This document shows positions 47,438 through 60,300 of a stretch of 64,000 nucleotides of DNA, one piece after another. The stretch's first letter is position 1. Each line of letters begins with the position of its first letter. The DNA comes from a virus, in the UHGV virus genome UHGV-0311442; one strand, 5' to 3'. The notes beneath the pieces were generated by a model that did no database searches, was not told the origin of the DNA, and was given only the letters and a program-made list of their open reading frames with translations. A program made the translations under genes and the position numbers.

Positions 47438-47914
47438 TTACAGCCCTAAGTGCGTGAGTGATAAAATAGGTTGTGTTTCACCTTTAATCGTCGCGAAGGA
47501 ACGATACATTTCTGCGTTACTTGAAAAAACTTCGTTAGCAACGATACATTCACCCGTCTCTAAAGAAAGGAGATAAATGTAGTCGCTCCATACGCTTTGT
47601 ACCAACACCCACTCAAGTGCGGTATCATTTTCGCGTGTTGTTCGCAGGTGGTGAAAGTAAGGACGGATTGCATCAACTGCCGCATTAAAACGACGGTGAT
47701 AAATTCGGGTTAAATCAAAGGTCCAGATTGTTTCCAGGTCGACTGGATGTAGTGTGCGCACCGTTTCGATAATTGTCGACTGATCATTAAGGCGCGAGGC
47801 TTCGGCGATACGCAGCAGTTTCCAGGCCACCGTTAAGTTGTGGCGAATTTGTTCAGGTTTAGCCGACAGGTCATGATGAAATTGCGCAGCTTGGTAAACG
47901 TTAGATAATTGCAT
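47438..47914 (-). CDS. Hypothetical protein
   Basis: Track ORF of 158 aa with an ATG after CCTAAAGGAGTATTAAA. Confidence 0.6.
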   Translation of the reverse strand: MQLSNVYQAAQFHHDLSAKPEQIRHNLTVAWKLLRIAEASRLNDQSTIIETVRTLHPVDLETIWTFDLTRIYHRRFNAAVDAIRPYFHHLRTTRENDTALEWVLVQSVWSDYIYLLSLETGECIVANEVFSSNAEMYRSFATIKGETQPILSLTHLGL

Positions 47915-47943
47915 TTTAATACTCCTTTAGGTAAACATGTCGT

Positions 47944-47970
47944 AAAAAGGACCCCGGACGTACCGGGGTC
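47944..47970 (-). terminator. Rho-independent terminator (minus strand)
   Basis: Stem gaccccgg/ccggggtc with loop acgta. The minus strand continues cttttt. Confidence 0.7.
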
Positions 47971-47980
47971 AAGACTACAC

Positions 47981-48370
47981 TCAATGATCTAATTCAATAG
48001 CACCAGCCATCTTGCCCCGTTCTTCGATAACAATCAGATAACGGTCGCGAGATTTGCTTTTAGCGAGAGTTAAGACAACAGTAGGGTCGCATGTTTTCGT
48101 GGTGATAGGAAGAACCTCTCTTTCGACGGAATCGAGCAGAAAGTAATAACCTGCGGGACACATTGTGCCACCGTCAGCTTTTACCAGAATATAGCGCCCG
48201 TCTGCGCCGACTTCTTGGCAGATTGTTTCACCGACTTCGCAAACTTCAAACCCCGGAGGATTGTACTGATAATCGGTATTGTTGTTTGGGGTTAGCAGTA
48301 AATCGTTAACTTGAGTAGATGCTGCTACACTCAGGGAGAAGAAGAATGCTAAAACGCAGACGAGACGCAT
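47981..48370 (-). CDS. Secreted small Cys-containing protein; paralog of 48381..48791
   Basis: Track ORF of 129 aa with signal-like MRLVCVLAFFFSLSVAAS. There are four Cys. CEVGETICQ...RYILVKADGGTMC corresponds to CTEIDGLYCQ...RYVFIVEQGGAWC in the neighbour. Confidence 0.6.
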   Translation of the reverse strand: MRLVCVLAFFFSLSVAASTQVNDLLLTPNNNTDYQYNPPGFEVCEVGETICQEVGADGRYILVKADGGTMCPAGYYFLLDSVEREVLPITTKTCDPTVVLTLAKSKSRDRYLIVIEERGKMAGAIELDH

Positions 48371-48380
48371 GAGTTACTCC

Positions 48381-48791
48381 TTAAATTTTAAGTTTATCCA
48401 TAGCTACAACGATAGGTTTTTCCGAAGTGTCTAATATCCCTACCATTGGCACACCATCTACGACTTCGAAGAATGGTTTGTTATTACCAGAGCATAGACG
48501 TTTGTCGTTGTATTCGAGACGTTGGGCCTTCCACGTTTCGAGGTTGAGTACAGACATTGGGCTGTCGTAGCACCAGGCACCACCTTGCTCAACGATGAAT
48601 ACGTATCTGCTACCTTTGTATTTAAACAGACTCTTCGCCTGACAGTACAACCCGTCAATTTCCGTACAATAGAAATCATCGGTGCTATTGACGTATTTAA
48701 TATTGTCTGGCAACTGAATCGTCTTTGCTGTAGCGTTGACAGAGAACAGAACAGCCATTGCAATGAGAAGAGTGTTGATGATAGTTTTCAT
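48381..48791 (-). CDS. Secreted small Cys-containing protein; paralog of 47981..48370
   Basis: Track ORF of 136 aa with signal-like MKTIINTLLIAMAVLFSVNATA/KT. It shares the four-Cys pattern with the neighbour. Confidence 0.6.
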   Translation of the reverse strand: MKTIINTLLIAMAVLFSVNATAKTIQLPDNIKYVNSTDDFYCTEIDGLYCQAKSLFKYKGSRYVFIVEQGGAWCYDSPMSVLNLETWKAQRLEYNDKRLCSGNNKPFFEVVDGVPMVGILDTSEKPIVVAMDKLKI

Positions 48792-48802
48792 GATAAAAGT
48801 CC

Positions 48803-49288
48803 TTAGTATTTAGATTGTTCTACGTATTTCTTAACCAGGTAAGCGAATTCAGCAACACCGATATCACCGAACCAAATCAGGTAACCGGGGTCGATGTTGT
48901 AGTAATAGCCGACGAGTTTCTTGGTGTGTGGGTTGTATAGCGTTACGATGTATTCCCAACCACAAGCGTTAGCTTTACAACCGCCGCTTTCAATCCAGAT
49001 TTTGTTGTTGATATTTACCGGATACATGTTACCGCCAGGGCCATCCATGTAACCTTTAGAGCCGAACATACCATCCAGTCCCACAGGGTCTAGTGTTTTA
49101 TCAACAACGGCTTTAAACGACTTATCGGTATCGTACAAGTCGTTGATGTTTGGGCACGCATTTGGCTGACCTTCCCAAGCGTTTCCATCGCAGGTAAGCA
49201 ATTCGTCTACGGAGGCCGCATCTACAGTTGGCGTGGCACCGATAAACAAGAAAACCAGAAAGAACATCAGTGTATGTAAACGTTTCAT
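48803..49288 (-). CDS. Secreted protein, Ivy-like (inhibitor of lysozyme / lytic transglycosylase family) candidate
   Basis: Track ORF of 161 aa with signal MKRLHTLMFFLVFLFIGATPTVDA/AS. IWIESGGCKANACGWEYIVTLYNPHTKKLVGYYYNID...LIWFGDIG aligns by eye with E. coli Ivy YQVMSACKPHDCGSQRIAVMWSEKSNQMTGLFSTID...LTWLNVND. The loop His is replaced (CKANAC; nt ~48959-48985). Confidence 0.4.
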   Translation of the reverse strand: MKRLHTLMFFLVFLFIGATPTVDAASVDELLTCDGNAWEGQPNACPNINDLYDTDKSFKAVVDKTLDPVGLDGMFGSKGYMDGPGGNMYPVNINNKIWIESGGCKANACGWEYIVTLYNPHTKKLVGYYYNIDPGYLIWFGDIGVAEFAYLVKKYVEQSKY

Positions 49289-49306
49289 TGTAACTACTCC
49301 TTTAGA

Positions 49307-49699
49307 TTATTCGGCAGGACGATTTAAGGTAACGCGTCCGATTAATTCGGCGTTGTGAAAGAAGTCCACAGCGGTATAATTACCAACGGATAATGGGTGA
49401 ATACTAACTGACATTACTTTCGGTTGTTCGCAAGCAATATCGGTTAGACGTTGGTAGACTTGCGCACGGGTGTCAGCAATGAGTAACCCCGTACACGCTT
49501 CACCACGCACTAAACGATAAACTTGCAGTTTACCGAAACTGCGCATTAACGTAGGCGTCTCATCCGGGTTGATAATCGGTGAGTCAGGAGCCGGTTCGTA
49601 ATAGCGGACATCCGAATCACCGAAAGCATAAGTGCCAGTAATTCCGACCGCACAGAAAATAATGATAGTATAAAGTATAGTTCTGATATTCATTTTCAC
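49307..49699 (-). CDS. Secreted or membrane-anchored small protein
   Basis: Track ORF of 130 aa (GTG at 49699; alternative ATG at 49693). The N-terminus IRTILYTIIIFCAVGITGTYA/FG is hydrophobic and signal-like. Confidence 0.55.
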   Translation of the reverse strand: MKMNIRTILYTIIIFCAVGITGTYAFGDSDVRYYEPAPDSPIINPDETPTLMRSFGKLQVYRLVRGEACTGLLIADTRAQVYQRLTDIACEQPKVMSVSIHPLSVGNYTAVDFFHNAELIGRVTLNRPAE

Positions 49700-49721
49700 G
49701 CACTCTAAAAAAGATTAATAG

Positions 49722-50183
49722 TTATTTGTTAGGACGGGTGTGCCCACAGTTTTGGAAGAAAGTTTCAGATAAACGATCGCCTTCTACGGTAAAGTTAGCG
49801 GCATCGTTACCATTGATACTCACACTGAAAGTTTTGGCATTACCGATAGCATTAACGAAAGCAACCCAAGCGTGTTCTGCCTTGTCACTACCGTCCACGG
49901 TAGGGATGTTATAGGTTTTGCCGTTTACGACAATATCCATCGTGTTATCTTCAGCGTTAGTTGCACCTACGGGTTCCCCGTAATACCAAACCATGCGACC
50001 GTAAAATTTGCGATTCGCAGTTTCAGTGTCACAGTTGATAGACAGTCCGTTTCCGGCGGTGTCTTCAATTTCGTAAACTGCCTGGCCAGGGTTTTGTATT
50101 TGTTCCCAGCTGTTGATAGCGGCGTGTGCAGTATTGAAACCGATTACGAAAAGGGCGATTAAAAAGGAAGTGAAGATTTTCAT
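49722..50183 (-). CDS. Secreted small protein
   Basis: Track ORF of 153 aa with signal MKIFTSFLIALFVIGFNTAHA/AI and an ATG after ATAAAGGAGC. It is the first gene after promoter-like motif 50231-50257. Confidence 0.6.
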   Translation of the reverse strand: MKIFTSFLIALFVIGFNTAHAAINSWEQIQNPGQAVYEIEDTAGNGLSINCDTETANRKFYGRMVWYYGEPVGATNAEDNTMDIVVNGKTYNIPTVDGSDKAEHAWVAFVNAIGNAKTFSVSINGNDAANFTVEGDRLSETFFQNCGHTRPNK

Positions 50184-50230
50184 TGTTTTGCTCCTTTATG
50201 GCGTTAATGTATAAAGAGTTAATCGTAACT

Positions 50231-50257
50231 CTCACCTAAGTAATATATATCTGAAAT
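50231..50257 (-). promoter_or_regulatory. Promoter-like motif, class A (minus orientation: ATTTCAGATATATATTACTTAGGTGAG)
   Basis: Near-identical to 54517-54543. It lies directly downstream (minus sense) of terminator 50276-50308 and ~50 nt upstream of the ATG at 50183. The upstream flank is AT-rich. Confidence 0.5.
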
Positions 50258-50275
50258 TATTTTTAATATTAACGA

Positions 50276-50308
50276 ACAAAAAATAAAAGGTGGGGGTAAA
50301 CCCCCACC
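50276..50308 (-). terminator. Rho-independent terminator (minus strand)
   Basis: Stem ggtggggg/cccccacc with loop taaa. The minus strand continues ttttatttttt. Confidence 0.8.
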
Positions 50309-50312
50309 GATG

Positions 50313-50891
50313 TTATACATCGAACCGGTACTGCCGGGAGTTAATGAGGAACTCGGTATTCAGCTCAATCCATTCGAGTAAATCACCCAACGGTAATCGG
50401 TTTGGGTTTTCTAACTCAATAGACGCTACCGGATAAGAGTTTACTAATTCCGTAATTGCCTCAATACCCTCTTGCGTTCCGTCGTCTTCTAAGGTGATTG
50501 TAAACGGCATATCGGTACGATCCGCATTAGGATTGTACAAACTGACTTTCGTTGCTTGGACAAACGCAGTCAGGTCGTCACGTATAATGCGTGTATCAGG
50601 CGCTAGAACTACCCAGAGATGTTGTCCTGGCTGGAGTTTACGTTTTGCGTAGTTTAAGAACGGGTTAGCCGGTAAGCTTTCCAAACCACTGCAAATGTTC
50701 CGTAAATGAATCCCTCGTGGGTCTTTATAGTCCACGCTGAAGATTCCTACCGGTTCCTTCGCTGCCTGTTTTATCAGAAAGACCAATACCGTGTCCGCTC
50801 TTTCTGGTAAGGAAAGCTCTATTCCCTCAAGCTCCCCATCGACGAGGTTTTCCAACCAAACGTCTTTTCGCATTTCTATTAATCGGTACAC
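50313..50891 (-). CDS. Hypothetical protein
   Basis: Track ORF of 192 aa with a GTG start after GTGAGGTGG. It lacks the C-terminal GW...QLLF module of the four upstream genes. Confidence 0.55.
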   Translation of the reverse strand: MYRLIEMRKDVWLENLVDGELEGIELSLPERADTVLVFLIKQAAKEPVGIFSVDYKDPRGIHLRNICSGLESLPANPFLNYAKRKLQPGQHLWVVLAPDTRIIRDDLTAFVQATKVSLYNPNADRTDMPFTITLEDDGTQEGIEAITELVNSYPVASIELENPNRLPLGDLLEWIELNTEFLINSRQYRFDV

Positions 50892-50903
50892 GGTACCACC
50901 TCA

Positions 50904-51677
50904 CTATTGATTAAGTTTTACATCGGCAATAAACAGCAATTGTTTACCATGTTGCTGCACTTCTTTCCAACCTAGTTTCATAGCAGCGTCAACAACATCT
51001 AACATGCTGTAACGGGACATCAACGCGGTTGATTTTGTTCCTGACATTAAATAAAGCGGCTCATTAGGGCAACGGTCTCGAGCATCAGGAAGTTCTCGAA
51101 TAACCGCTGAGCCTTCGGGTGCGGTAACAACGTGAATCACGGTAAATGGTCTCTTATGCGTTAAATAGATACGAAATCCAACGTGTTCAGATTCATGAAA
51201 GATTTTCTTCACAACCACATCTTTTAGTGTTGTCTGAACATCATCCCCAGGTAATATCGTGGATTCACGAGAAACGAAACAACGACTATTTTCAATCGTG
51301 GAGAAATAATTACGTATCGGCAAACTGGCGTTATGATCGCGCAGTTTTTTGCTCAATAGATCGAAGTTCAGTTCTTTAACTTTTTCTAACCACTCTTTGG
51401 CTTGTTGAATGTAATAACTACCAACAGCGCGATAAGTTAATACCTTACCTGTGCTCACTTTCCAAAGCTTGATGCTTAGTGAATTTGGCTTATAGCGACG
51501 ATACTCACCCTGCGTATGGTTGATGCGCTCGTAACGCTCTACATCATCAACTGGTGCAGATTCGACCGATTGTAATTGCAGCGTACGATCTAATCTATCG
51601 GCAAATAGTAGTGATGATAGCGGGCCTTCGATCATATACGGTTCGGTTTTAAAGATATCGTCTAAATGGACTTTCAT
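50904..51677 (-). CDS. Member of the tandem paralog family (C-terminal GW...QLLF module)
   Basis: Track ORF of 257 aa. The N-terminus MKVHLDDIFKTE corresponds to MKELLDDIFTNT of 53511..54248. The C-terminus is LGWKEVQQHGKQLLFIADV. Confidence 0.6.
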   Translation of the reverse strand: MKVHLDDIFKTEPYMIEGPLSSLLFADRLDRTLQLQSVESAPVDDVERYERINHTQGEYRRYKPNSLSIKLWKVSTGKVLTYRAVGSYYIQQAKEWLEKVKELNFDLLSKKLRDHNASLPIRNYFSTIENSRCFVSRESTILPGDDVQTTLKDVVVKKIFHESEHVGFRIYLTHKRPFTVIHVVTAPEGSAVIRELPDARDRCPNEPLYLMSGTKSTALMSRYSMLDVVDAAMKLGWKEVQQHGKQLLFIADVKLNQ

Positions 51678-51692
51678 TTCTATTTCCTTCTT

Positions 51693-51718
51693 AACAAAAG
51701 CCGCGACTAAAGCGCGGC
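51693..51718 (-). terminator. Hairpin terminator (minus strand), weaker
   Basis: Stem gccgcg/cgcggc. The minus strand continues ttttgtt. Confidence 0.55.
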
Positions 51719-51744
51719 AGTTAGAGAAAGTGTAGTTTCACTTA

Positions 51745-52896
51745 TTAAAGGTCAGCAACAAACAGCAGCTGACTGCCGTACGGTTCGACAGATTTCCAAC
51801 CGTAATCTTTACCGATCGTCGTTAGATGGCCGGTATTTAACTTTTTGTCAACCATCCGCAGACGCATCATTAGCGTATTGGATTCTGCCGCATCGAGTAA
51901 CAACGCAGGTTCTTTTTCAGTGCGGTCATCCGCTTTCGGGAAGAAACTGTAATACTGACTTTTGGGCAGTTCGATTGTCAACGTATAGTTTTTCTTTGTA
52001 ATGAATAACGCCATCCCTTCGAAATTACAATCGAAACGATATTCCCAACCCGCCTCGGCTAAAACGTCTTTTAGCATTTCCATGACTTTAAGCTGGTTAA
52101 CGCTAGGCAGTCGGTAAGCTGCAAGGTTACTTGGAAATATGCGTATACCGTCGACGACACTATCGGTGGTTTCGTCAATAAGTTCAGGATAACGTTGCGA
52201 GAAAATATGATCGCTCTTGCTTTTCTCTTCGATGTCACGAATGAATTGGGCTATTTCGTCTCTTAAGCCAGACACTTGATTTTCTCCTTCGACTTCAATA
52301 ATCTGGTGGGGTTCGCCGCTAATTAAAATGTGGTAAACGATGTCGTCGGTAGAACGGTAAGTGAGTTTGATAGCTTTATCACTTAACATTTCGTAGCGGA
52401 AGAAACTTTCGTACCAAGTTGACCCGAAATCGTTTCGTGTAAGTTCCTGCTCAACTTTGATGGTTTTTGCTTCAAAACCAATTAACCCACTTAATAACGC
52501 GTGTTCTGGTTTAGTTAAAATGTTCGCACCGTGAAAGGGCACTTTCTCAAGCTGAAAACATAAATTACTGACTTTACCACTTGGGAAGACCTTAAACATA
52601 ATCTTCCGGCTGCTACTCTTTTCCCTAACAACGAGTTTACGGTAATTTAGTCCACAATTTGTGTAAACCGCGAACTTGTAACCTTCAATTTCTTCATCGT
52701 AAGTACAGACATCGACAGGTGCGATAATCTCATTGTATTCAGTAAGTACACAGCAGCCCAAGTTATAACCAAACAACTCACGTTGTAATGAAGATTCGAT
52801 GGTTAAGCTTGGTAGTGACCAAGTCCGATTATAGCATCTGTCCATCAGTTCTTTTAGGATCTTGGCATGTCCTGGCTTAGAAATAATATTTCGCAT
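51745..52896 (-). CDS. Member of the tandem paralog family; carries two copies of the GW...LF module
   Basis: Track ORF of 383 aa. The C-terminus is YGWKSVEPYGSQLLFVADL, and an internal copy reads AGWEYRFDCNFEGMALFITK. Confidence 0.6.
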   Translation of the reverse strand: MRNIISKPGHAKILKELMDRCYNRTWSLPSLTIESSLQRELFGYNLGCCVLTEYNEIIAPVDVCTYDEEIEGYKFAVYTNCGLNYRKLVVREKSSSRKIMFKVFPSGKVSNLCFQLEKVPFHGANILTKPEHALLSGLIGFEAKTIKVEQELTRNDFGSTWYESFFRYEMLSDKAIKLTYRSTDDIVYHILISGEPHQIIEVEGENQVSGLRDEIAQFIRDIEEKSKSDHIFSQRYPELIDETTDSVVDGIRIFPSNLAAYRLPSVNQLKVMEMLKDVLAEAGWEYRFDCNFEGMALFITKKNYTLTIELPKSQYYSFFPKADDRTEKEPALLLDAAESNTLMMRLRMVDKKLNTGHLTTIGKDYGWKSVEPYGSQLLFVADL

Positions 52897-52926
52897 TTTT
52901 ACTCTCCTTTAGGGTTTTTTTGTTAC

Positions 52927-53481
52927 TTAAGCAGGGTAAGCTAAAAACAACAACTGCTGGCCGAGTTTACGTACAGTATACCAACCGTGGGCTTTAGCGA
53001 CCGCGATCAACGTTTCCCAGTCATCAACATCACACTGCTCATTCCGAAGTCTTGTAAAGAGTGCCTCGGCTTCGCTTTGGTTTAATAACTTACCTGGGTT
53101 GTCTGGGGTGCAGTCAGTAGGGGTTGGAAAGAAAGTATACTGACGCGCTAGGAGAAAATCGACCAGATACTTGGTATTTTCTTTATAAACCAGCGTGGAA
53201 GACTTTCCTTCGTGGAAGAAGCTGCCTGTTTTCCAAGCGCTATCCCCCAGTAAGCTCTGAAGGTAATCTGTAAAGCCCGTTCTGAAAGGGATATGGTTTT
53301 TACGTGTGATGTTACGACGCAGCGGGGTTTCCTCTACAGCTTGTACACCCACCCCTACTATCATCGCACCTGGCTGAATAATGCTATTGGTCAGTACGGT
53401 ATAAGGACGGACAAAGAAATGTTCGCCTACGCCTTTTTCAAGGGTTTGGATAATTTCATTTTTCAGTTCAGTTTGAAACAT
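52927..53481 (-). CDS. Member of the tandem paralog family
   Basis: Track ORF of 184 aa. The C-terminus is HGWYTVRKLGQQLLFLAYPA. Confidence 0.6.
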   Translation of the reverse strand: MFQTELKNEIIQTLEKGVGEHFFVRPYTVLTNSIIQPGAMIVGVGVQAVEETPLRRNITRKNHIPFRTGFTDYLQSLLGDSAWKTGSFFHEGKSSTLVYKENTKYLVDFLLARQYTFFPTPTDCTPDNPGKLLNQSEAEALFTRLRNEQCDVDDWETLIAVAKAHGWYTVRKLGQQLLFLAYPA

Positions 53482-53510
53482 GGTATATTCTCCTTTTTCG
53501 GTTTTCTTAA

Positions 53511-54248
53511 TTACGCGGTTTTAATTAACAGCAGATAGTCCTTCGTAATCTCAGCACAACCCCACCCTCTCATCGCGGCGATTTTACGAAGATCAATTTT
53601 CTCGTGATATCTCAATAAGGGATCGCCTGAGTTAATCTCAACCAGGTGTGTGGCTTTAGAAATCGTTTCTACATCAGGGATCTGTTTTGCTAAGTCGGAT
53701 GCAATTAACTCGATGATACGGTATCCCTCTAACACAGAAACATAGATGCGCAAACCATATAGCGTGCCTTCGTCTTCTAATGGACAAAGATCGATGCCGG
53801 GTCCAAGCAGTGATAACTCGACGTTATCGGGAAGGTTTTCTGCATTTCGGAGTAACCCTATCCCATTTCTAAACAGAGGGAAGTAAGAGAATAGTGGTGG
53901 TAAAGCCCAACCGTTCCCAATAAGCACATCAGCGATACTCGTAGGTGTGTTCGCAAGAAGACGAATGTGGTCAGCCACAACTTCAAGTTCGGCGTCACTG
54001 ATCAACTTATAGATTAACATGACACTGGTTTCGGTATTAATAACAAAGAAGACGCGGTTGGCGTAACTGCCTATCACGTATTCGTCAATCATACAGTCGA
54101 TAACGTCACTGTCTGGATAATCTTCAGGTTTAATTGTTCCAGCATCGATTAACTTAGCAGGTTGCGATTGTTTTATTAGTTCGTTAACCACCGTAGAAGA
54201 AAGTTCTAAACTGGTGTTGGTAAAGATATCGTCTAATAATTCTTTCAT
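53511..54248 (-). CDS. Member of the tandem paralog family (most divergent C-terminus)
   Basis: Track ORF of 245 aa. The C-terminus is RGWGCAEITKDYLLLIKTA, and the N-terminus matches 50904..51677. Confidence 0.6.
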   Translation of the reverse strand: MKELLDDIFTNTSLELSSTVVNELIKQSQPAKLIDAGTIKPEDYPDSDVIDCMIDEYVIGSYANRVFFVINTETSVMLIYKLISDAELEVVADHIRLLANTPTSIADVLIGNGWALPPLFSYFPLFRNGIGLLRNAENLPDNVELSLLGPGIDLCPLEDEGTLYGLRIYVSVLEGYRIIELIASDLAKQIPDVETISKATHLVEINSGDPLLRYHEKIDLRKIAAMRGWGCAEITKDYLLLIKTA

Positions 54249-54344
54249 GATTTACTCGCTAATCCCAATGAAGGGAAGGCTATTATTATGGATTGTAAAA
54301 GAGGTATAAGGAAGTCACTACGTTCCTCTGGGAAGAGTATGTCG

Positions 54345-54382
54345 GTATACTCCGTATACCTCCGCTATTTATATCCGTATAC
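54345..54382. repeat. Three copies of C(C/G)GTATAC (palindromic GTATAC cores at 54345-50, 54354-59 and 54377-82)
   Basis: Read directly from the sequence, in the 319-bp non-coding region between divergent genes. Candidate operator array. Confidence 0.6.
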
Positions 54383-54388
54383 ATAATG

Positions 54389-54402
54389 CCCCCTACCCCC
54401 TA
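54389..54402. repeat. Tandem heptamer CCCCCTA x2
   Basis: Read directly from the sequence (ccccctaccccctacc). Confidence 0.7.
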
Positions 54403-54487
54403 CCGGTATCCCGAGTAGCAGAATAAAGGGACATAATGTAATTTTTAGTAACCTTTAACGAAAGGTACTAAAAGGGTAACGTGTCCG

Positions 54488-54516
54488 TAGGGACTGAACT
54501 GGTACTTCAGTCCCTA
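54488..54516 (-). other. 11-bp hairpin (tagggactgaa/ttcagtcccta) immediately downstream (minus sense) of promoter-like motif 54517-54543
   Basis: Read directly from the sequence. It would form the 5' end of a minus-strand transcript. Confidence 0.55.
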
Positions 54517-54543
54517 TTCACTTAAGTAAAATATATCTGAAAT
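54517..54543 (-). promoter_or_regulatory. Promoter-like motif, class A (minus orientation: ATTTCAGATATATTTTACTTAAGTGAA)
   Basis: Near-identical to 50231-50257. It points toward the paralog array but lies ~270 nt upstream of its first ATG (54248). Confidence 0.45.
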
Positions 54544-54568
54544 CAATTCCGATCTAAGGAACGTCCCG

Positions 54569-55534
54569 ATGGAGAAATCCAGTGTTGATTTTTTCTCAAT
54601 TGGTATCGTCGCGGAAGACAAACCCCGTGGTACAGATCGGGTAAAAGTGATACCAATTGAAACTAACTTTGCTAACCCTACCGTGGTGCAATCTGTTTCT
54701 TCAGCAACTGAAAAGACGCATGAAACGTCTGGTGCAACAGATAACCTAACCATTAAGACGGGTAACACGATAACAGCAAAGTGGTGGAAGTTTAACTCCA
54801 ACCGAATTAATTCCCCTGACGTTAAACGAGAAGACTACGTTATCTTGTTACGTTTGGGGAAAACCGATATTTATTTTTGGATTGATCTGAACTTCGCTAA
54901 CGTTAAGCGATTAGAAGATGCGGTTTATGCGTGGTCGGCTGACCCTGAAAACCAAATGGCGGATGACTTGTCCAATGCGTATGTGTTGAACGTTTCGACG
55001 ATTGACAAACATATCACGCTAAGAACAAGTATGGTGAATGGCGAGAAAGCGGCGTGGTTGTTTCAGTTTGATAATGCAAACGGTACGTGGCAGTGCGTTG
55101 ACCATAAAGGAAACAAGTATTACATTAACTCGGTTGAAGATGATCTCGGGTTTGAGAATGCGATGCTTTCAAAAGTGAACATCAACAAAGAAGATGCGTT
55201 CATTTATTCAAAGCGTTCTATTAACCTGGAAACGAAAACGATTAATGAAAAATGCGAAGTTCGCAATACAGAAGCAGCGAAATCCGTTACGTTTAAAACA
55301 CAAACCTGGTTAACGGAAGCGGGAAGTTCGACAACGTTTAAAACGCCGAACTTTAAACAAGAAGGGAAGGAAGCGATGTTCACCGGTAATTTGGAAATCG
55401 CTAAGAACTTCAAATACGGTGGTACGGGTGAAGGTGTGGGTGTCTTTACGGTTAAAGATGCTGTTATTTCCGGTATTACCTTTAGCGTTCACATTCACCA
55501 AGGTAAACATGGTCCGACATCACCTCCGCAATAA
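54569..55534 (+). CDS. Baseplate central spike / cell-puncturing protein (gpV/gp5 OB-fold-like)
   Basis: Track ORF of 321 aa. The N-terminus FFSIGIVAEDKPRGTDRVKVIPIE is OB-fold-like. The C-terminus VHIHQGKHGPTSPPQ resembles the HxH...G.T..P apex motif of P2 gpV/Mu gp45-type spikes. It neighbours tail-fibre genes. Confidence 0.45.
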   Translation: MEKSSVDFFSIGIVAEDKPRGTDRVKVIPIETNFANPTVVQSVSSATEKTHETSGATDNLTIKTGNTITAKWWKFNSNRINSPDVKREDYVILLRLGKTDIYFWIDLNFANVKRLEDAVYAWSADPENQMADDLSNAYVLNVSTIDKHITLRTSMVNGEKAAWLFQFDNANGTWQCVDHKGNKYYINSVEDDLGFENAMLSKVNINKEDAFIYSKRSINLETKTINEKCEVRNTEAAKSVTFKTQTWLTEAGSSTTFKTPNFKQEGKEAMFTGNLEIAKNFKYGGTGEGVGVFTVKDAVISGITFSVHIHQGKHGPTSPPQ

Positions 55535-55740
55535 TTCCCCTTTTTCTTACGTTGTTTTTATATATTGTGACCTGACGTTGGTAAAACTTTTTATCAACAC
55601 TTTTCTTAAACCCATCGTTTAGTTAAGCAGGCCACTTTTTTCGCGCACTCTACTCCTCCCTACGGGGAGGAGCTATCTTATGCTTCGGTTGTAACACACG
55701 TCGGTCTTAGACCACCTTCCTTTTGAAATGGAGAGCTGTT

Positions 55741-55950
55741 ATGTCTATTAAAGAGTTCTCTTCTGCTGAGCATATTCCAGAAGAGTTTAAGAAAATCGGT
55801 AACGTTAGCGCCTTCGGCGATACCGTTGATCATGTAACTGGTAAGCTGGCTGCTGAAGCCGAAAAAATTGGCGGCGACGCATTCAAAGTTATCGGTATTT
55901 CCGGCAACAACAAACTGCACGGTAACGCGATTGTCTACAAAAAAGACTAA
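55741..55950 (+). CDS. DUF1471 (YdgH/BhsA/McbA-like) small protein lacking a signal peptide
   Basis: The track ORF starts at a TTG at 55723. The ATG at 55741 follows GGAGAGCTGTT. KKIGNVSAFGDTVDHVTGKLAAEAEKIGGDAFKVIGISGNNKLHGNAIVYKK matches the enterobacterial BhsA/YhcN-family core pattern (IG.VS..G...S.......LA.KA...GA....I.S.......L.G.A..YK). Confidence 0.6.
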   Translation: MSIKEFSSAEHIPEEFKKIGNVSAFGDTVDHVTGKLAAEAEKIGGDAFKVIGISGNNKLHGNAIVYKKD

Positions 55951-55953
55951 GCG

Positions 55954-56010
55954 AAAAAAAAACGTGCTACTCCTACCCTCTAAGAGGGTAGGAGGTTACT
56001 TTATTTTTTT
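55954..56010. terminator. Bidirectional hairpin terminator
   Basis: 11-bp stem ctcctaccctc/gagggtaggag with loop taa. An A9 run lies upstream and tttattttttt downstream. Confidence 0.8.
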
Positions 56011-57263
56011 CGTGCTCTAAAGCGATGCATTTCTAAATACACTTTTTCCCAGGGACCGAATGGACCAACGATTGCTTGAGCATCGTTAATCTTCTTCTGA
56101 TTATACCACCGGGCTTCACGAAAGACGTAGTTTTGACTGTCGAATTCGGTGGTGTTAAATACCCACTCACCTTCCTCCCACGTAGGCCAATAACCTACCG
56201 TCTTACCAAATCGATTATTTAAGTACCCTAATGGTTTTTCAGAATCAGGATCGTTAGGGTCCTTGAGATAACAACGTCCCCAAACTGCGTTATGGGATAC
56301 ACCCACAACCTCTTCTTCTAAATACGGATTATCTACCGTAAAGATAAAAGAGGATTCGTGGAGTAAAAGTGCCTTTAATGTTTCGGGGTTGCGAATACGT
56401 TGGACATTAGTAGGTGTTGATAAATCCCCCACACCGATGGCGTCCCAGTCGTAATAGCGACGGGTTTCCAGAACGGTCCGTGCAAGATCAAAATTCGGTA
56501 AAGAAATCATGATAGCACGGTCGGAGAAATAACCGCCCGGGGGCAACCAACGTAACATCCCGCCTATGACGAAACCCACGGTTTTTCCCGTAATAGATTC
56601 GGGCAGCGATATCATTAACGTAGAGTAATAGTCGCGTGTAGTGTCGAGCTTGTTTAGGGTAAGGTTGGCAATGGGGTAAGTTTTAACATTCCCTAACTGA
56701 CCAAAAACCATACAACCAATATCTGGCGTACAGGCTCTCCGTACGATTTTACCGGCCCCGGGTAATCGCACACCTACGGTATCCGTCTGGTGTGGTACCC
56801 ACTGACCGTTGATGTTGTAGAGCACACTATTACGGTATTTGTCCTTCCACTTGTCCTCACAAACGACGACAACGTCATCAGCATCGTCTAAGCTGAAATC
56901 TTGACTGTGATGGTACCCCGGCGGACACAGATATGTCTCGACAGGCACATCGGCATTAATTGATTGGTAGTGTGCCCAACTGAATTCCAGTTTCGGCAAT
57001 CCGGCCTTTAGAGTGGGGATGACGTTTCCGGCTTTTTCATTTAACCAATCTTGTAAAGTGTCTGTTCGGTTTTGTAGTTCGGCAAGATGGTATTGACTGA
57101 CTAACGTATAGTCTTTACCAAGTGCACTTAAACCGATCTCAAAGGTGTGGTAGTCTGAACACAACGTATTTAAGGGTTGCGTGACATCGATGGCTCCCCA
57201 GGTACGGGACTCTCGAGAGAAGCCAAAAGCGCTGTCGGGCCGCACTTGATAAGCAGTAGTCAC
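56001..57263 (-). CDS. Hypothetical protein (possibly baseplate/tail-associated by context)
   Basis: Track ORF of 420 aa with a GTG start after GAGGAAAAG. It is divergent from the tail-fibre operon. Confidence 0.55.
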   Translation of the reverse strand: MTTAYQVRPDSAFGFSRESRTWGAIDVTQPLNTLCSDYHTFEIGLSALGKDYTLVSQYHLAELQNRTDTLQDWLNEKAGNVIPTLKAGLPKLEFSWAHYQSINADVPVETYLCPPGYHHSQDFSLDDADDVVVVCEDKWKDKYRNSVLYNINGQWVPHQTDTVGVRLPGAGKIVRRACTPDIGCMVFGQLGNVKTYPIANLTLNKLDTTRDYYSTLMISLPESITGKTVGFVIGGMLRWLPPGGYFSDRAIMISLPNFDLARTVLETRRYYDWDAIGVGDLSTPTNVQRIRNPETLKALLLHESSFIFTVDNPYLEEEVVGVSHNAVWGRCYLKDPNDPDSEKPLGYLNNRFGKTVGYWPTWEEGEWVFNTTEFDSQNYVFREARWYNQKKINDAQAIVGPFGPWEKVYLEMHRFRARKK

Positions 57264-57331
57264 AGCTCTTTTCCTCTATAGATTCAAGTCATAGTATGAA
57301 CTTCGACGCCCACGGACTATAGGAGTAGAGA

Positions 57332-60300
57332 ATGGCTGTCGTCCTAGACCCACACTTCAAAAAACCGGGGAATAAAATAACCGGTGAAGCGGTCGCCGTC
57401 TTTGGTACGAAATACCGAATGTTGGTACCTGCCCACGCCCCTTTTTTCACCACATCCCTGGTGGTCAAGAGCGGCGGCAAAACACTGACCATAGGCGACG
57501 ATTACGTTATTACGCACCCGTACGAGACCGGTATGTTGCGCACAGCCTATCTCATTCACGGGATGATTTGGATTGTTAATGACAAATACAAATCGAATTT
57601 TACGGTAGATTACCACGCCGTTGGTTGTGGTCAGGCTACCCAACAACAGATTACCGCAGAACGCGAACTCAATAAAGATAAATACCCGTCTGCGTGTCAG
57701 TGGGACACCGTCATCGGGGACGTTTACTTTCCACCGGTCGATATCCAGTTCGATTGGGAGAATTGGAAAGGTGAACTGGAATTAATGCAGGCTATTGCTG
57801 GATTAGGCGATTCGTTAGGGGAAGTCGTGAGTCGGCTTAACCCCATCGCACGCAATACCCTGGATTTAGAATACCGTGCTAATAGCAAGGTTATCACTTC
57901 CGAGCAGTATGCCGTATACGACAATAAAGGTGGCTTCACCTACAACACTGCCCGTCATCGTTATAGCTTGAGTTATAAAACTGCAACCTTTAACGACTAC
58001 GCCCTGTCAGTGAAACACAGAATTCCTGCTATTCTGCCAGACATGACGAAATTGAATCCAAACGAACAGATCGATTGGATGCTCTGTTATGCTAACGGCG
58101 GTGCAAGTATTCTACGGCTGCAGCTAAAACAGCGCAAAATCTCACTGGTCTTAACGGTCGCTATTGGTAGCGGTTCAACAAACTACGATTATACGTTAAT
58201 CAACGGCTTAACTGACGATGAGTTAAAAAACGATATCGATTTTAGTGTAACCCGACAACCCGGAAACGGTGTTTACGTCATCGTAGTAAAAACAAATAAA
58301 CAGACCATGGATTACACATTCAATGTCGATACGCCGCCTGATGAGTTCTCGGCAGGGTATTCGAAAACGGATGTTGCTAAATGGTTGAAGTTTAAAACGA
58401 ACATTAATTTAAACTGGTATGCGGCCGAAAACGATTATATTCAAATTCGTTCTTTACCCGGCGCACCAGAACCTGACATCGATAACGATGTTTACCAGTT
58501 AATAGTCAAATACCATCAGTTAGTTGAGCAGCTGTATCGTAACGCGCCTGCACACGAACACGTTACACGTAAGGACAACCCGCACACCGATACGTGGGGT
58601 CCGATCCGTGCGTTAGAGCTGAATGGTATTGCGACAGATGCCGCGTTAGCTTACGGGAAGACGAAACAGCAGTTAACGGATTATGTTAATGCTAAGTACC
58701 CAACACAAGCAACGTTAACCGCACAGAAAAAACTGCTTCGTGAATCGCCGAGCAAGAACGTTAACGGCACGATTACCACACTTCCGGGTTTTACTTCGTT
58801 CACGACGGAAGTTGATCCGGTCTCGATGTCGAAATACGTGAGTCCTTATTTTAGCGAAAGCTATGTTAGTAGTGGTCACAGATATCACGGCGCGCTTCGT
58901 TATACAGGAGCGAAAAGCGGTTTCAGTGCTAACTTTAATGCAGTGCCTGCCAACCTGCAAGATATTGACTTTATTGTTACTGGACGTAAAACAGCGTCTG
59001 GTAATGAAGCGGTCGGTAGGGTTGGTTTACGTTTCTACGAAAATCCTGGTAGTAACTCCGGTAAGTACGTAGAGATTACCGGTGAAGTCTGGTCCGGTAC
59101 TCTTACTATCGAACTGGCGTTGCACGGTTACGGTAGTCCGGTACCGGCAGTTCGGTATATTTCACAAGCTCCTAACCCGGCAATACCGGATGGGGATTTT
59201 ACGCTACGTTTTCAACTGAAGCGTACAGGGAATGTGTTTGACGTCGTTATTACCGTAAACAGTAAAACGTATAGCGGTAGGATTAACTTCAATAACATGG
59301 ACGCTGCGTTAGAAGCATTAGAGAATCAGCACCACTTTAAATCGCTGATCAATAATGTTGCCGACGCCGTTACCATTAGTTCGCAAAACAAAGGTAACAC
59401 GGTTACCATTAAGAAAGCACCGGATGTTGTTGACGAGACACGTTTAGGTGCCCAGTTTGTTGTTGATCCGAAATCCATCAAGTTTATTGGCCAAGGTTCA
59501 ACTGATGTTAACGTGGCTAACAACCCCGTAACGTTCCAAGCAGGTACTAACCAGCTTGTGCTATACCCCGATGACCGAGGATTGTTGTGGCGTGGTAAAA
59601 AACTCTTAGACCCCACCACCGTAGCCCCGTATCTGCCAGGCAATACCGCAGGTGGCACAGGTTTATTCTACGCAAGTTCGACAACAACGGTTACGATCAC
59701 CGGTAGCGGGATAAAAGCCTCGCCGTTCGTAGCGACCTTTATTCTTCCTACCGCGACCGATACAACAGCTCTGGCAGCTTGGCAGTTGACCGATGAGTTC
59801 GGTACCGCTGAAAACCTTGCAGCAACGCCAGCACTGATTGAAAAACTCGATGCGGAGTTCACCGGTAAGTTAGTTGCAGTTAAATCGTACATTAACGACA
59901 TGCAACTTACCAGCTCGGTTACTATCGATAAGATTACCTTTGGTTTAGGTAACGTTGCGAATACGCCTGATGTCGATTTACCGATTTCTACAGCACAACG
60001 TGCGGAGTTAGATAAATACTCGCCTAAAGTTCACCAACACCCGTTTACCGCTTTTGGTACAGGGAACGCAACCACAGCGCAACGTGGTCTGATTAAATTT
60101 GGTCTGGATGTGGATGATGCGACTTTAGCACTCGATGGGAGTGTGGTAATGGCGCAGACTTCCCAGATTGAAAAATTGGAGCGCGCTGTCAGCGGTGTTG
60201 ACTCGGAGGCACGTCTTGACATTATACGTTTTGGTGAGTCTGGTAACGACTTAATAGACGTTACGGTCAAAGACAAAATTCTGGTCACGCTTCCAGCTTC

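What the first reader, a model, noticed from the sequence alone, without database searches (positions are those of the whole stretch)
54249..54568. 319-bp non-coding hub between the paralog array and the baseplate spike gene: operator-like GTATAC repeats, a tandem heptamer and a structured leader
This is the longest non-coding stretch in the window. Reading in minus sense from the class A motif (54543-54517), a transcript would begin with an 11-bp hairpin (54516-54488). It would then traverse a CCCCCTA x2 repeat (54389-54402) and three C(C/G)GTATAC boxes (54345-54382, with cores spaced 9 and 23 nt apart) before reaching the first ATG at 54248.

Such a long, repeat-rich leader suggests one of three things:
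- an operator array for a DNA-binding regulator at divergent promoters;
- a regulatory 5' UTR;
- a small non-coding RNA.

The only ORF here (32 codons, MDCKRG...) has no SD and is composed of the repeats themselves.
Basis: seen in the sequence. Interest (0 to 1): 0.55.

Follow-up and report, generated by a model that had tools for sequence, protein, structure and literature searches.

The report
Conserved structured leader beside baseplate gene
The 319-bp gap next to the baseplate gene of this giant phiKZ-like phage holds an old, strongly conserved non-coding module, most likely a structured RNA leader or small RNA for the leftward accessory genes, and the "GTATAC operator boxes" are the two arms of its covarying hairpin.

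Summary
The window comes from a phiKZ-like jumbo phage related to Erwinia phages Stratton/Asesino and Salmonella phage SPN3US.

- **Conservation.** The core (54306-54430) is homologous to a module upstream of the gp164-like baseplate gene in at least five genera. A covariance model built only from those other genera finds the window once (38.4 bits, E=4e-7).
- **Constraint.** Among close relatives the module is 96-99% identical. Third-codon positions of the adjacent gene have fallen to 68-79%.
- **GTATAC boxes.** Boxes 1 and 2 are the arms of a 7-bp hairpin whose arms covary across genera. They are not operators.
- **Other parts.** CCCCCTA x2 is a conserved C5-N-C5 block. The right third is clade-specific: an early-type promoter, a covarying 11-bp hairpin and the stump of a deleted 25-codon ORF.

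Best reading (about 0.45): a minus-strand leader or small RNA that heads the leftward accessory-gene array and ends in a terminator-like hairpin followed by UCCUUAUUC.

Rivals are a plus-strand control region for the baseplate gene and a DNA-level hairpin site. There is no Rfam match and no transcript data. The strand and the function are inferred.

The parts
53511..54248 (-). First leftward gene (245 aa, no known family). It heads the accessory 'paralog array' that separates the SbcC-like gene (44190-46769) from the baseplate gene.
   Evidence: ORF. No PHROG or Pfam hit and no tblastn hit in phages. In other genera this position holds unrelated genes: phrog_18565, or paralogs of phrog_26772/18480.
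54293..54304 (-). T-run+AC promoter-like motif (CCTCTTTTACAA on the minus strand), 45 nt upstream of the leftward ATG. This is 'P_down'.
   Evidence: TTTTTAC[AG]-type motifs are enriched in intergenic DNA and point towards the next gene, both in the window and in Stratton/SPN3US. The window copy has only four T and fails the strict pattern. It is absent in L005-type relatives, where the gene starts 27 nt after unit 1.
54306..54326 (.). Unit 1, the minimal bulged hairpin: ATAA-GGA-A-GTC-AC-TAC-GT-TCC. On the minus strand it reads GGA-AC-GUA-GU-GAC-U-UCC-UUAU.
   Evidence: The same unit occurs in Erskinevirus (AC/GT), in Derbicusvirus (GC/GC) and in Aeromonas phage pAEv1810. The 2-bp stem covaries AC/GT <-> GC/GC.
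54335..54364 (.). Unit 2. The head AGAGTATGTC replaces the consensus AAGGA-N-GTC. P1 hairpin: GGTATAC (54344-50), loop TCC (54351-53), GTATACC (54354-60), then TCCG. This unit contains GTATAC boxes 1 and 2, and a TATG at 54338-41.
   Evidence: Six of 7 inner pairs change on both sides across 15 sequences from other genera. That is 24 cells, 0 of 500 shuffles reach it, and slid controls are much lower. Stem variants are listed. Within the clade the only variable base is the loop middle, 54352 C/A.
54365..54388 (.). Spacer containing GTATAC box 3. It aligns with the conserved YACAYA(G)AT block that precedes the C-run in relatives. Most relatives show a short variable hairpin here (P2).
   Evidence: Alignments. 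Only 54386 varies within the clade.
54389..54404 (.). C5-N2-3-C5 block (CCCCCTACCCCCTACC). On the minus strand it reads GGUAGGGGGUAGGGGG.
   Evidence: Present in all relatives that carry the module: CCCCCTTACCCCC, CCCCCGGTCCCCC, CCCCCTCTCCCC, CCCCCTACCCCC. It is unique in the window.
54405..54446 (.). Clade-conserved segment GGTATCCCGAGTAGCAGAATAAAGGGACA, followed by TGTAATTTTT. The latter is the degraded counterpart of the relatives' CGTAAAAAAG (minus-strand TTTTTTACG, 'P_up').
   Evidence: In relatives TTTTTTACG lies 34-35 nt from the C-run. It sits back to back with the late promoter TA[AG]TATGA of the baseplate gene.
54446..54472 (-). Hairpin TAGTAACCTTT/AAAGGTACTA. It overlaps the last five codons and stop (FSTFR*) of a roughly 25-codon minus-strand micro-ORF that is intact in relatives and was removed here by a deletion of about 100 bp.
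   Evidence: L005, L164 and L167 read MSTEKK(S/G)GLDEVIE(L/Q)FKRYNPAIPR. L006 and L169 read MFAEQKDGIEEVVRLFRHYSPYLPR. The distance from the module to the ATG is 258-264 nt in the window type and 360-365 nt in the ORF-bearing type.
54488..54516 (.). 11-bp hairpin immediately downstream (minus sense) of the class A promoter.
   Evidence: The clade shows five stem variants that keep pairing. Two genomes carry a G.T wobble readable only on the plus strand, and none the reverse.
54517..54543 (-). Class A (early, virion-RNA-polymerase-type) promoter motif: ATTTCAGATATATTTTACTTAAGTGAA.
   Evidence: Recurs at 50232-50253. The same motif lies upstream of minus-strand genes in Stratton, SPN3US, Phobos, Derbicus, L013 and L175. 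Jumbo-phage early promoters are AT-rich motifs of about 10 nt centred near -10 (PMC7598289).
54544..54568 (+). Proximal 5' region of the baseplate gene, with an AAGGA Shine-Dalgarno sequence at 54556-60. The strict late-promoter motif is absent here.
   Evidence: The strict pattern TA[ACG]TATG[AT] occurs only at 27453 and at 57292/57296 in the window.
54569..55534 (+). Baseplate / cell-puncturing gene. It is the homologue of phiKZ gp164 and the constant right-hand neighbour of the module.
   Evidence: phrog_3216, E=9e-114. tblastn finds 290 phage records.

Best explanation
The gap is a compound divergent control region.

**What the core is.** The core (about 54306-54446) is an ancient cis-module that sits at the head of the leftward accessory-gene array in enterobacterial phiKZ-like phages. 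It most likely acts as RNA read on the minus strand.

**Path of the transcript.**
1. Transcription starts on the baseplate side. In this phage it starts at the class A early-type promoter (54543-54517). In other genera it starts at a TTTTTTACG motif placed back to back with the baseplate late promoter.
2. In this clade the RNA opens with a 5' stem-loop (54516-54488).
3. It crosses the G-rich block GGUAGGGGGUAGGGGG and a short variable hairpin.
4. It ends in, or reads through, one or two bulged hairpins of the form GGA-[stem-loop]-GAC-N-UCC, followed by UUAUUC and further U-rich sequence. This resembles the 'hairpin + TTAT' terminators of phiKZ-type phages.

**Outcome.** Partial termination would release a small RNA: about 100-110 nt in the relatives and about 170-220 nt here. 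Read-through would feed the leftward gene(s). The module would therefore work as a leader or attenuator, or as a 5'-UTR-derived small RNA.

**Shown.**
- Homology and strong purifying selection.
- Hairpin covariation.
- Promoter-like motifs on both flanks in the minus orientation.
- A U-rich tail.
- Co-occurrence of the module with the inserted array.

**Inferred.** That the module is transcribed at all, the strand, termination at the hairpin, and any target.
For: 1. **Homology and uniqueness.** Model R1, built only from 15 sequences of other genera in the minus sense, hits the window once. The hit is 54296-54449(-), 38.4 bits, E=4e-7. The next hit scores 10.3 bits.
2. **Selection.** Third-codon identity of the baseplate gene falls to 68-79% in L005-7, L165 and L169. 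In the same genomes 54306-54430 differs only at 54352 and 54386.
3. **Structure.** P1 covaries: 6 of 7 pairs change on both sides, with 0 of 500 shuffles reaching that value. There are ten stem variants.
4. **Promoter-like motifs in the minus orientation.**
   - The class A motif is here.
   - T-run+AC motifs lie mostly in intergenic DNA and point at the next gene. This holds for 4 of 10 minus-strand hits in the window and 5 of 8 hits in Stratton.
   - In relatives such motifs bracket the module on both sides.
   - R1's promoter segment also matches 55539-55581(+), upstream of the DUF1471-like gene, though not significantly (10.3 bits, E=0.67).
5. **Tail.** In the minus sense, 14 of 16 units are followed by T-rich sequence: TTATTC, TTTATTCTTTTT, TTTTTG. 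Canonical terminators of this phage family end in, for example, TATCC-TTATTTTTT. phiKZ terminators are a stem-loop followed by TTAT (PMC10914365).
6. **Context.**
   - More distant phiKZ-like phages have the SbcC-like gene next to the baseplate gene. Their gaps are only about 20-75 bp and carry no module. These are phiKZ, Vibrio MS32, Aeromonas D3, Pantoea Survivor and Erwinia RAY.
   - The module is seen only where an accessory array has been inserted between the two genes, always at the array's upstream end.
   - The first array gene varies from genus to genus.
7. **Stand-alone copy.** In Aeromonas phage pAEv1810 a short version lies between convergent genes and is flanked by their terminators. 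R1 scores it 19.1 bits, E=0.011. This arrangement fits a stand-alone transcription unit, not a gene's promoter.
8. **Leader in L005-type relatives.** The leftward ATG lies 27 nt after unit 1 with no promoter motif in between, so the module must be part of that gene's leader.
9. **Precedent.** 5'-UTR-derived small RNAs made by premature termination are common in phiKZ and 201phi2-1 (PMC10914365; PMC11512511).
10. **Folding.** The minus strand folds best, with z = -4.8.
Against: - There are no transcript data for this phage or any SPN3US-like phage.
- The module's spacing is conserved relative to the baseplate gene, not the leftward gene. The C-run lies 75-106 nt from the baseplate ATG in other genera.
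- In Phobos, Derbicus and L013 a canonical class A promoter lies between the module and the leftward gene. That gene therefore does not need the module as a leader.
- P1 stems show no G.U pair in about 50 bp, which is unusual for an RNA helix and gives no evidence on strand.
- The two wobble pairs in the 54488-54516 hairpin are readable only on the plus strand.
- The E. coli-type terminator scan calls nothing inside 54249-54568.
- STsAS and pEa29 lack the U-rich tail.
- Unit 2 in this window has lost the UCCUUAUUC tail.
- One relative, L175 (54% baseplate identity), lacks the module.
Confidence: 0.45

Rival explanations
1. Plus-strand function. The module is an upstream control region or long 5' leader of the baseplate (gp164-like) gene. 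In this clade the AGAGTATGT at 54335-43 would serve as a phiKZ-type late promoter (T-3 A T G+1). It would give a 227-nt structured 5' UTR running through the C-run and both hairpins. In other genera the module would act as an upstream element of the TA[AG]TATGA late promoter.
For: - The baseplate gene is the constant neighbour and the spacing to it is conserved. The C-run lies 75-106 nt from the ATG and 34-35 nt from CGTAAAAAA.
- The window lacks the strict late motif in front of the baseplate gene. It carries TATG exactly where relatives have AAGGATGTC.
- L005-type relatives keep TACTATGA downstream of the module, which would give a leader of about 190 nt.
- Both wobble pairs in the 54488-54516 hairpin fit plus-strand folding.
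- The plus strand also folds better than all shuffles, with z = -3.5.
Against: - In all other genera the late TATG lies downstream of the module, so the module is not in the baseplate mRNA.
- phiKZ late promoters show no upstream sequence requirement (PMC7598289).
- The Aeromonas copy has no downstream gene in the plus sense.
- GAGTATGT departs from the strict TA-N-TATG seen at the three clear late promoters in the window.
- Phages without the leftward array lack the module yet still express the same gene.
Confidence: 0.2
2. DNA-level structural site. The hairpins would extrude from negatively supercoiled DNA between divergent promoters, or form on single-stranded DNA. They would serve as a replication-priming or origin site, or another protein-loading site.
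For: - The P1 stems are perfect inverted repeats with no wobble across ten variants.
- On the minus strand the loops of the short forms read GNA closed by C-G. From my own knowledge, this is the d(GCGNAGC) class of extra-stable DNA mini-hairpins. phiX174's F-G primosome-site region contains GCGAAGC and GAAGCGG.
- The module is single-copy in the window. The flank-extended minimal-unit pattern also occurs once per jumbo contig of 107-246 kb.
- All 125 nt are invariant within the clade.
- The site lies at the switch of gene orientation, which is also the minimum of cumulative GC skew.
- Several relatives carry 3-4 GATC sites within the module.
- The same 19-nt motif lies on the viral strand of many about 6-kb Microviridae contigs.
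Against: - There is no similarity to the G4 primase origin or the phiX174 primosome site beyond short words. R1 scores them at noise level.
- The GC-skew minimum is explained by gene orientation.
- In the microviruses the motif is best explained as the 5' arm of a long terminator-like hairpin with many G.U pairs. R1 gives that motif only 6.5 bits.
- The 19-nt pattern is expected about 35 times by chance in IMG/VR (my estimate).
- Some relatives lack the module.
Confidence: 0.12
3. An operator array. The GTATAC boxes would be binding sites for a dimeric double-stranded-DNA-binding regulator acting on the divergent promoters.
For: Within this clade there are three identical palindromic hexamers in 38 bp, placed between divergent genes.
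Against: - The hexamer is not conserved outside the clade.
- Arms 1 and 2 change together, and stem length varies from 2 to 7 bp.
- Box 3 aligns with non-palindromic sequence in relatives.
Confidence: 0.04

Closest known systems
5'-UTR-derived small RNAs made by premature termination in phiKZ and 201phi2-1, including the conserved sRNA upstream of tail gene gp182/gp277 (Putzeys 2024, PMC10914365; PMC11512511)
   Same: It is a conserved, structured non-coding element in a jumbo phiKZ-like phage, next to a tail/baseplate gene. A promoter-like motif is followed within 100-250 nt by a hairpin with a TTAT-type tail. It is conserved by position across genera.
   Different: - The locus is different. 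This one lies beside the gp164 homologue. The gp182 homologue of this window (11563-13734, identified by its position after the 2388-aa gp181-like gene) has only a 48-nt upstream gap.
- The sequence and fold are different.
- The element lies on the strand opposite to the structural gene.
- No transcript evidence exists.
phiKZ-type intrinsic terminators (5'-BCCYCCCCHWWDGGGRRGGBYTTATKYYGT-3')
   Same: A stem-loop is followed by TTAT and pyrimidines. The family's own terminators (CYCCTACYCC stems) end in, for example, TATCC-TTATTTTTT, which resembles GACATCC-TTATTC.
   Different: - The P1 stem sequence is unrelated to the conserved terminator stem.
- Seven nucleotides (GAC-N-UCC) separate the stem from TTAT.
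- The U-run is short or absent in some relatives.
phiKZ-type early promoters (virion RNA polymerase) followed by a 5' stem-loop
   Same: The class A motif is AT-rich, recurs upstream of leftward genes, and is followed at once by a hairpin. This is seen both at 54488-54516 and at 50232-50253.
   Different: This describes only the right-hand 60 nt. It does not explain the conserved core.
Primase/PriA single-strand initiation sites of Microviridae (G4 oric, phiX174 n' site)
   Same: Stable hairpins lie in a non-coding region. GNA-type mini-hairpin words and a 'CCCTAC' word are shared.
   Different: There is no significant alignment. The defining CTG start site after the hairpin and the AAGCGG word are absent from the module.

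Membership tests
phiKZ-type early (vRNAP) promoter | A conserved AT-rich motif of about 10 nt centred near -10, recurring upstream of early operons | tested here: met
   CAGATATAT(A/T)TTACTTARGTGA occurs at 54518-54539 and 50232-50253 on the minus strand, with 0 matches expected by chance. Homologous motifs lie upstream of minus-strand genes in relatives. The definition comes from PMC7598289.
phiKZ-type early (vRNAP) promoter | A mapped transcription start about 7-10 nt downstream that is independent of protein synthesis | not testable with these tools
   No transcript data are held for this phage group.
phiKZ-type late promoter | T-3 A T G+1 at the start site, upstream of structural genes | tested here: inconclusive
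   The strict motif TA[ACG]TATG[AT] precedes the baseplate gene in Stratton and SPN3US but not in the window. The window has only AGAGTATGT, at 54335-43.
Intrinsic / phiKZ-type terminator | A GC-rich stem-loop followed directly by a U-run or TTAT | tested here: inconclusive
   In the minus sense, P1 and unit 1 are followed by UCC-UUAU(U/A)C, and in most relatives by further U-rich sequence. The E. coli-type scan finds no terminator in 54249-54568. Two relatives lack the U-rich tail.
5'-UTR-derived sRNA (premature termination) | A start site followed by a termination site within 250 nt, giving an abundant short RNA | not testable with these tools
   Only sequence-level proxies are available: promoter-like and terminator-like motifs 100-250 nt apart.
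5'-UTR-derived sRNA (premature termination) | Conservation of position and secondary structure in related genera | tested here: met
Operator array for a dimeric DNA-binding regulator | The repeated recognition sequence and its spacing are conserved among relatives | tested here: not met
   The arms covary, stem length varies from 2 to 7 bp, and box 3 is not conserved.
Any Rfam family (riboswitch, ribozyme, known sRNA) | A covariance-model match | tested here: not met
   Nothing appears at gathering thresholds in the whole window. Only noise appears at E<=10 in 53000-56000. There are also no relevant hits in the Aeromonas, microvirus and L040-type loci. No tRNA or tmRNA was found.
G4-type primase origin / PriA primosome assembly site | A hairpin followed by the CTG start site (G4), or an AAGCGG-containing hairpin (phiX174) | tested here: not met
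   The G4 and phiX174 sequences were read. Neither feature is in the module. R1 scores both genomes at noise level.
Protein-coding micro-ORF across the module | A reading frame and start codon conserved among relatives | tested here: not met
   The ATGTCGG start is AAG in the Machinavirus-type sequences. The frame differs between Stratton and Asesino through a 1-nt indel in the C-run. The window's 32-codon ORF loses its start in L005-type relatives.

The most novel reading that the evidence does not exclude
The bulged hairpin (GGA-[stem, GNA loop]-GAC-N-TCC-TTAT on the minus strand) would be a structure-specific DNA or RNA signal read by a universal host or phage machine, for example a replication-priming or origin hairpin. 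Under this reading its short form is genuinely shared between dsDNA jumbo phages (SPN3US-like and the Aeromonas Ferozepurvirus), a large lineage of gut ssDNA Microviridae, and a repeated element in an Acidobacteriaceae chromosome. That would mark the first recognisable replication or priming signal of nucleus-forming jumbo phages.
Probability: 0.08. Interest if true: 0.85.

Novelty: new member of a known kind. Interest (0 to 1): 0.58.

Why it matters
Nucleus-forming jumbo phages run their own transcription programme. Apart from short promoter and terminator motifs, almost nothing is known about their cis-regulatory RNA or DNA.

- **What is new.** This module is a 125-nt non-coding element kept nearly invariant while neighbouring synonymous sites diverge by 20-30%. 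It is found in at least five genera and has a hairpin proven by covariation. It is absent from Rfam.
- **Where it sits.** It lies at the boundary between a fast-evolving leftward accessory-gene array, which carries early-type promoter motifs, and a late structural gene. That makes it a concrete candidate for controlling the early/late switch or the array's expression.
- **How testable it is.** It can be tested directly in SPN3US, which has a genetic system, and in the Erwinia phages.
- **Correction for annotation.** Palindromic 'operator' repeats in such gaps can be the arms of RNA or DNA hairpins.

Tried and rejected
- **Near-identical phage DNA.** No match in phages. A distant blastn with the module gave only weak hits.
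- **Rfam and tRNA scans.** Nothing found.
- **Coding potential of the module and the 32-codon ORF.** Rejected.
- **G4 and phiX174 priming sites.** I fetched both because I recalled a 'CCCTAC' word and the GCGAAGC mini-hairpin. G4 has GTCCCTACTG after a hairpin and phiX174 has GCGAAGC, but there is no real similarity to the module.
- **Wide distribution of the 19-nt unit.**
  - The pattern AAGGANGTCRCTNCGYTCC hit more than 120 IMG/VR contigs, mostly microviruses of about 6 kb.
  - About 35 chance hits are expected (my estimate), and the microviruses are one lineage.
  - RNAalifold places the motif in the 5' arm of a long terminator-like hairpin there, and R1 scores it 6.5 bits.
  - The shared flank GCCCTAC(C/G)CGGGC with the Aeromonas phage has p of about 0.003, which is suggestive only.
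  - The flank-extended pattern gave jumbo phages plus a 39-kb element family, where the motif lies 270 nt upstream of an ArdA gene, plus one other contig. About one chance hit is expected.
  - A genome-wide scan found two copies on one Acidobacteriaceae contig.
- **Trans-acting antiterminator.** I asked whether the G-block pairs with the family's conserved CCTAC terminator arms. The complementarity is present in this phage but does not track across genera: Stratton has GGT and SPN3US has TTA spacers. Dropped.
- **CsrA-site (ARGGAUGU), boxA/boxB and 16S-3'-end mimicry.** These are resemblances recalled from memory. None could be tested and none is used.
- **Strand from wobble pairs.** P1 has no wobble pairs. 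Marginal cases conflict.
- **Literature on SPN3US-like transcription.** None found. Ceyssens 2014 is not held.
Full report
**What is there.**
- The window is part of a jumbo phage of the phiKZ-like (nucleus-forming) group.
- The gene to the right of the gap (54569-55534) matches phrog_3216 'baseplate assembly protein' at E=9e-114.
- It has 290 tblastn relatives. The best are Erwinia phages Stratton/phiEaH2 (73%) and Asesino (69%), then Salmonella phages STsAS (67%) and SPN3US (62%). It is the homologue of phiKZ gp164.
- No phage record is close at the DNA level. Metagenomic contigs of about 222-229 kb carry the same gene at 93-100% protein identity.

**The core is an old, conserved module.**
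- Reading the region upstream of the baseplate gene in relatives showed that the left part of the gap is homologous across genera. These are Erskinevirus, Seoulvirus, Machinavirus, Wellingtonvirus, Derbicusvirus and several metagenomic phages.
- On the plus strand the common plan has four parts:
  1. (G)AATAAGGA-N-GTC, a hairpin of variable sequence and length, then TCCG.
  2. About 25 nt, often with a second small hairpin, ending in YACAYAGAT.
  3. CCCCC-N2-3-CCCCC.
  4. After 34-35 nt, CGTAAAAAAG, followed by the late-promoter motif TA(A/G)TATGA and the start codon.
- A covariance model built only from 15 sequences of other genera (alignment A3, model R1) finds exactly one significant match in the 64-kb window. 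It lies at 54296-54449 on the minus strand, with 38.4 bits and E=4e-7. The next match scores 10.3 bits.
- Within the window's own clade, third-codon positions of the adjacent baseplate gene have diverged to 68-79% identity. In the same genomes 54306-54430 differs only at 54352 (the middle base of the hairpin loop) and at 54386. This is strong purifying selection on non-coding DNA.

**The 'operator boxes' are a hairpin.**
- GTATAC boxes 1 and 2 are the arms of a 7-bp hairpin: GGTATAC-TCC-GTATACC, 54344-54360.
- In other genera the arms are GGTGAC/GTCACC, GGTATCC/GGATACC, GGTACTC/GAGTACC, GGTACCC/GGGTACC, GGTAGC/GCTACC, GGAG/CTCC and GTCT/AGAC.
- In the minimal form the stem is only GC/GC or AC/GT around a T-N-C loop.
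- On A3, six of the seven inner pairs change on both sides. That is 24 cells. None of 500 shuffles reaches the observed value, and slid controls fall to 35-59% paired against 90%.
- The flanking GGA and TCC never vary. They could form an outer helix that leaves a 4-nt bulge. That is my model and is not shown.
- The window carries two tandem units:
  - Unit 1 (54306-54326) has the minimal form.
  - Unit 2 (54335-54364) has the long hairpin. Its head has changed from AAGGATGTC to AGAGTATGTC.
- Box 3 aligns with the YACAYA block, which is not GTATAC in relatives.
- CCCCCTA x2 is the conserved C5-N-C5 block.
- A double-stranded operator would conserve its sequence and spacing. This element conserves only its pairing, so the operator reading is rejected.

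**The right third is clade-specific and partly deleted.**
- In the window's clade an insertion separates the module from the baseplate gene. In the minus sense it holds, in order:
  - the class A promoter motif (54543-54517);
  - an 11-bp hairpin (54516-54488);
  - in L005, L006, L007, L014 and L163-L169, a second hairpin and a micro-ORF of about 25 codons. The peptide is conserved while the DNA diverges: MSTEKKSGLDEVIELFKRYNPAIPR against MFAEQKDGIEEVVRLFRHYSPYLPR.
- The window and four relatives (L004, L161, L162, L166) have lost about 100 bp. In the window only the last five codons and the stop remain, at 54455-54472.
- The 11-bp hairpin keeps its pairing through five stem variants. Two genomes carry a G.T pair that is readable only on the plus strand.

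**Promoter and terminator grammar.**
- The class A motif recurs at 50232-50253 and upstream of leftward genes in relatives. It fits the published description of jumbo-phage early promoters (PMC7598289).
- The strict motif TA[ACG]TATG[AT] occurs only upstream of structural genes. In the window it lies at 27453 and at 57292/57296. In Stratton and SPN3US it also precedes the baseplate gene. It is absent before the window's baseplate gene.
- A T-run+AC motif, TTTTT(T)AC(A/G), lies mostly in intergenic DNA and points at the next gene.
- In relatives one copy (TTTTTTACG) sits back to back with the late promoter at the right edge of the module. Several relatives have a second copy just left of the module. 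Both are in the minus orientation.
- In the minus sense the hairpin unit is followed by UCC-UUAUUC and usually by more U.
- The family's canonical terminators have CYCCTACYCC stems and tails such as TATCC-TTATTTTTT. phiKZ terminators are described as a stem-loop followed by TTAT (PMC10914365).

**Context.**
- In more distant phiKZ-like phages the baseplate gene sits next to the SbcC-like gene. The gaps are only about 20-75 bp and carry no module. This holds for phiKZ, Vibrio MS32, Aeromonas D3, Pantoea Survivor and Erwinia RAY.
- In the window the SbcC-like gene is 7.8 kb away (44190-46769), behind an array of leftward accessory genes.
- The module is seen only where such an array exists, always at the array's upstream end. 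The first array gene differs between genera.
- A short version of the module occurs in Aeromonas phage pAEv1810. There it lies between two convergent genes and their terminators. R1 scores it 19.1 bits, E=0.011.

**Interpretation.**
- The best-supported reading is a minus-strand RNA. It would be a leader, attenuator or small RNA that heads the leftward array, starts at an early-type promoter and ends in or reads through the terminator-like hairpin units. I put it at about 0.45.
- It fits the following observations:
  - the promoter motifs and the U-rich tail;
  - the link with the array and the stand-alone Aeromonas copy;
  - the L005-type genomes, where the module must lie in the leftward gene's leader;
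  - the known abundance of 5'-UTR-derived small RNAs in phiKZ and 201phi2-1.
- It is not proven.
  - There are no transcript data.
  - The spacing is conserved relative to the baseplate gene.
  - Some relatives have a separate promoter after the module.
  - The stems give no wobble evidence on strand.
- Two rivals remain:
  - A plus-strand role for the baseplate gene, about 0.2. This clade has a TATG at 54338-41 exactly where it lost the canonical late promoter.
  - A DNA-level hairpin site, about 0.12.

**Leads that weakened.**
- The 19-nt minimal unit matches more than 120 viral contigs, mostly one lineage of microviruses of about 6 kb. There it lies on the coding (viral) strand.
- That number of lineages is about what chance predicts.
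- The microvirus alignment places the motif in the 5' arm of a long terminator-like hairpin with G.U pairs. Model R1 does not support homology.
- Only a shared flanking word with the Aeromonas copy is suggestive, with p of about 0.003.
- Two copies on an Acidobacteriaceae contig and a copy upstream of an ArdA gene in a family of 39-kb elements remain unexplained.

**Verdict.**
- The operator reading is wrong.
- The leader or small-RNA reading is plausible and now has comparative support.
- The module is a new, well-constrained member of the growing class of jumbo-phage non-coding regulatory elements. Its strand and mechanism are still to be shown.

Noticed in passing
window 54446-54472; L005:2740-2960, L006, L007, L014, L163-L169: A minus-strand micro-ORF of about 25 codons lies between the class A promoter hairpin and the module in close relatives (MSTEKKSGLDEVIELFKRYNPAIPR / MFAEQKDGIEEVVRLFRHYSPYLPR). 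The peptide is conserved while the DNA diverges. It has been deleted in the window, where only FSTFR* remains. L014 and L163 carry a third, frame-ambiguous version.
   Followed up: partly
window 14341-14364, 19197-19224, 38543-38568, 39162-39183, 55970-55994; L001:5389-5416; L003:5368-5392; L010:4428-4453: Canonical terminators of this phage family share a sequence-conserved stem (CYCCTACYCC ... GGRGTAGGRG) and a tail of N3-5-C-TTTATTTT. This is comparable to the conserved terminator motif reported for phiKZ. The module's C-block (CCCCCTACCCCC) looks like such a 5' arm without a partner.
   Followed up: partly
window 57285-57300: A near-palindromic TCATAGTATGA gives the late-promoter motif TA-N-TATGA on both strands between the divergent structural genes 56001-57263(-) and 57332-61654(+). 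The same arrangement is found in Stratton and SPN3US.
   Followed up: partly
window 55535-55950: A small DUF1471/BhsA-like gene (about 55742-55950, +) follows the baseplate gene, as in relatives. It has a leader of about 200 nt that carries a TTTTTCTTACGTT promoter-like motif (55539-55581) and a hairpin with CTATCTTAT (55653-55672).
   Followed up: no
window 18810, 27447, 40176, 47948 (minus strand); L001:995, 3405, 3842, 3971, 5072: The T-run+AC motif TTTTT(T)AC(A/G) lies in intergenic DNA 25-60 nt upstream of start codons, always in the sense orientation. It is a candidate promoter class distinct from the class A and TATG motifs.
   Followed up: partly
L039-L158 (IMG/VR contigs of about 6 kb), e.g. 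L046:2770-2942: A large lineage of gut Microviridae carries a highly conserved non-coding region between the pilot-protein gene and the small ORFs that precede the replication-initiator gene. It contains several covarying hairpins, a long terminator-like hairpin holding GGAGCGGAGCGACTTCC, and a GAGCGATATACAC word that could be the Rep nick site.
   Followed up: partly
L181:6623-6682 and L182:1288-1327 (Acidobacteriaceae MAG contig CAVTQV010000013.1): Two copies of AAGGA(A/C)GTCGCTTCGCTCC-N16-CCCTACC-loop-GGTAGG lie on one bacterial contig. This looks like a repeated extragenic element.
   Followed up: no
L040:2134-2156 and six sister contigs (39-kb elements): TGAATAAGGATGTCGCTTCGCTCCGCTA lies between divergent sigma-70-like promoters, 270 nt upstream of an ArdA anti-restriction gene (Pfam ArdA, 37.6 bits).
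   Followed up: partly
window 43701-44189: A 489-bp 'gap' holds several short hydrophobic ORFs on the minus strand (42, 32 and 61 aa). They look like small membrane proteins and are easily missed by annotation.
   Followed up: no
window 44190-54248 compared with phiKZ, Aeromonas D3, Pantoea Survivor, Erwinia RAY: The SbcC-like gene and the baseplate gene are immediate divergent neighbours in distant relatives. Here they are separated by a 7.8-kb array of leftward accessory genes. Several of these share a C-terminal domain (phrog_26772/24489/33648).
   Followed up: partly
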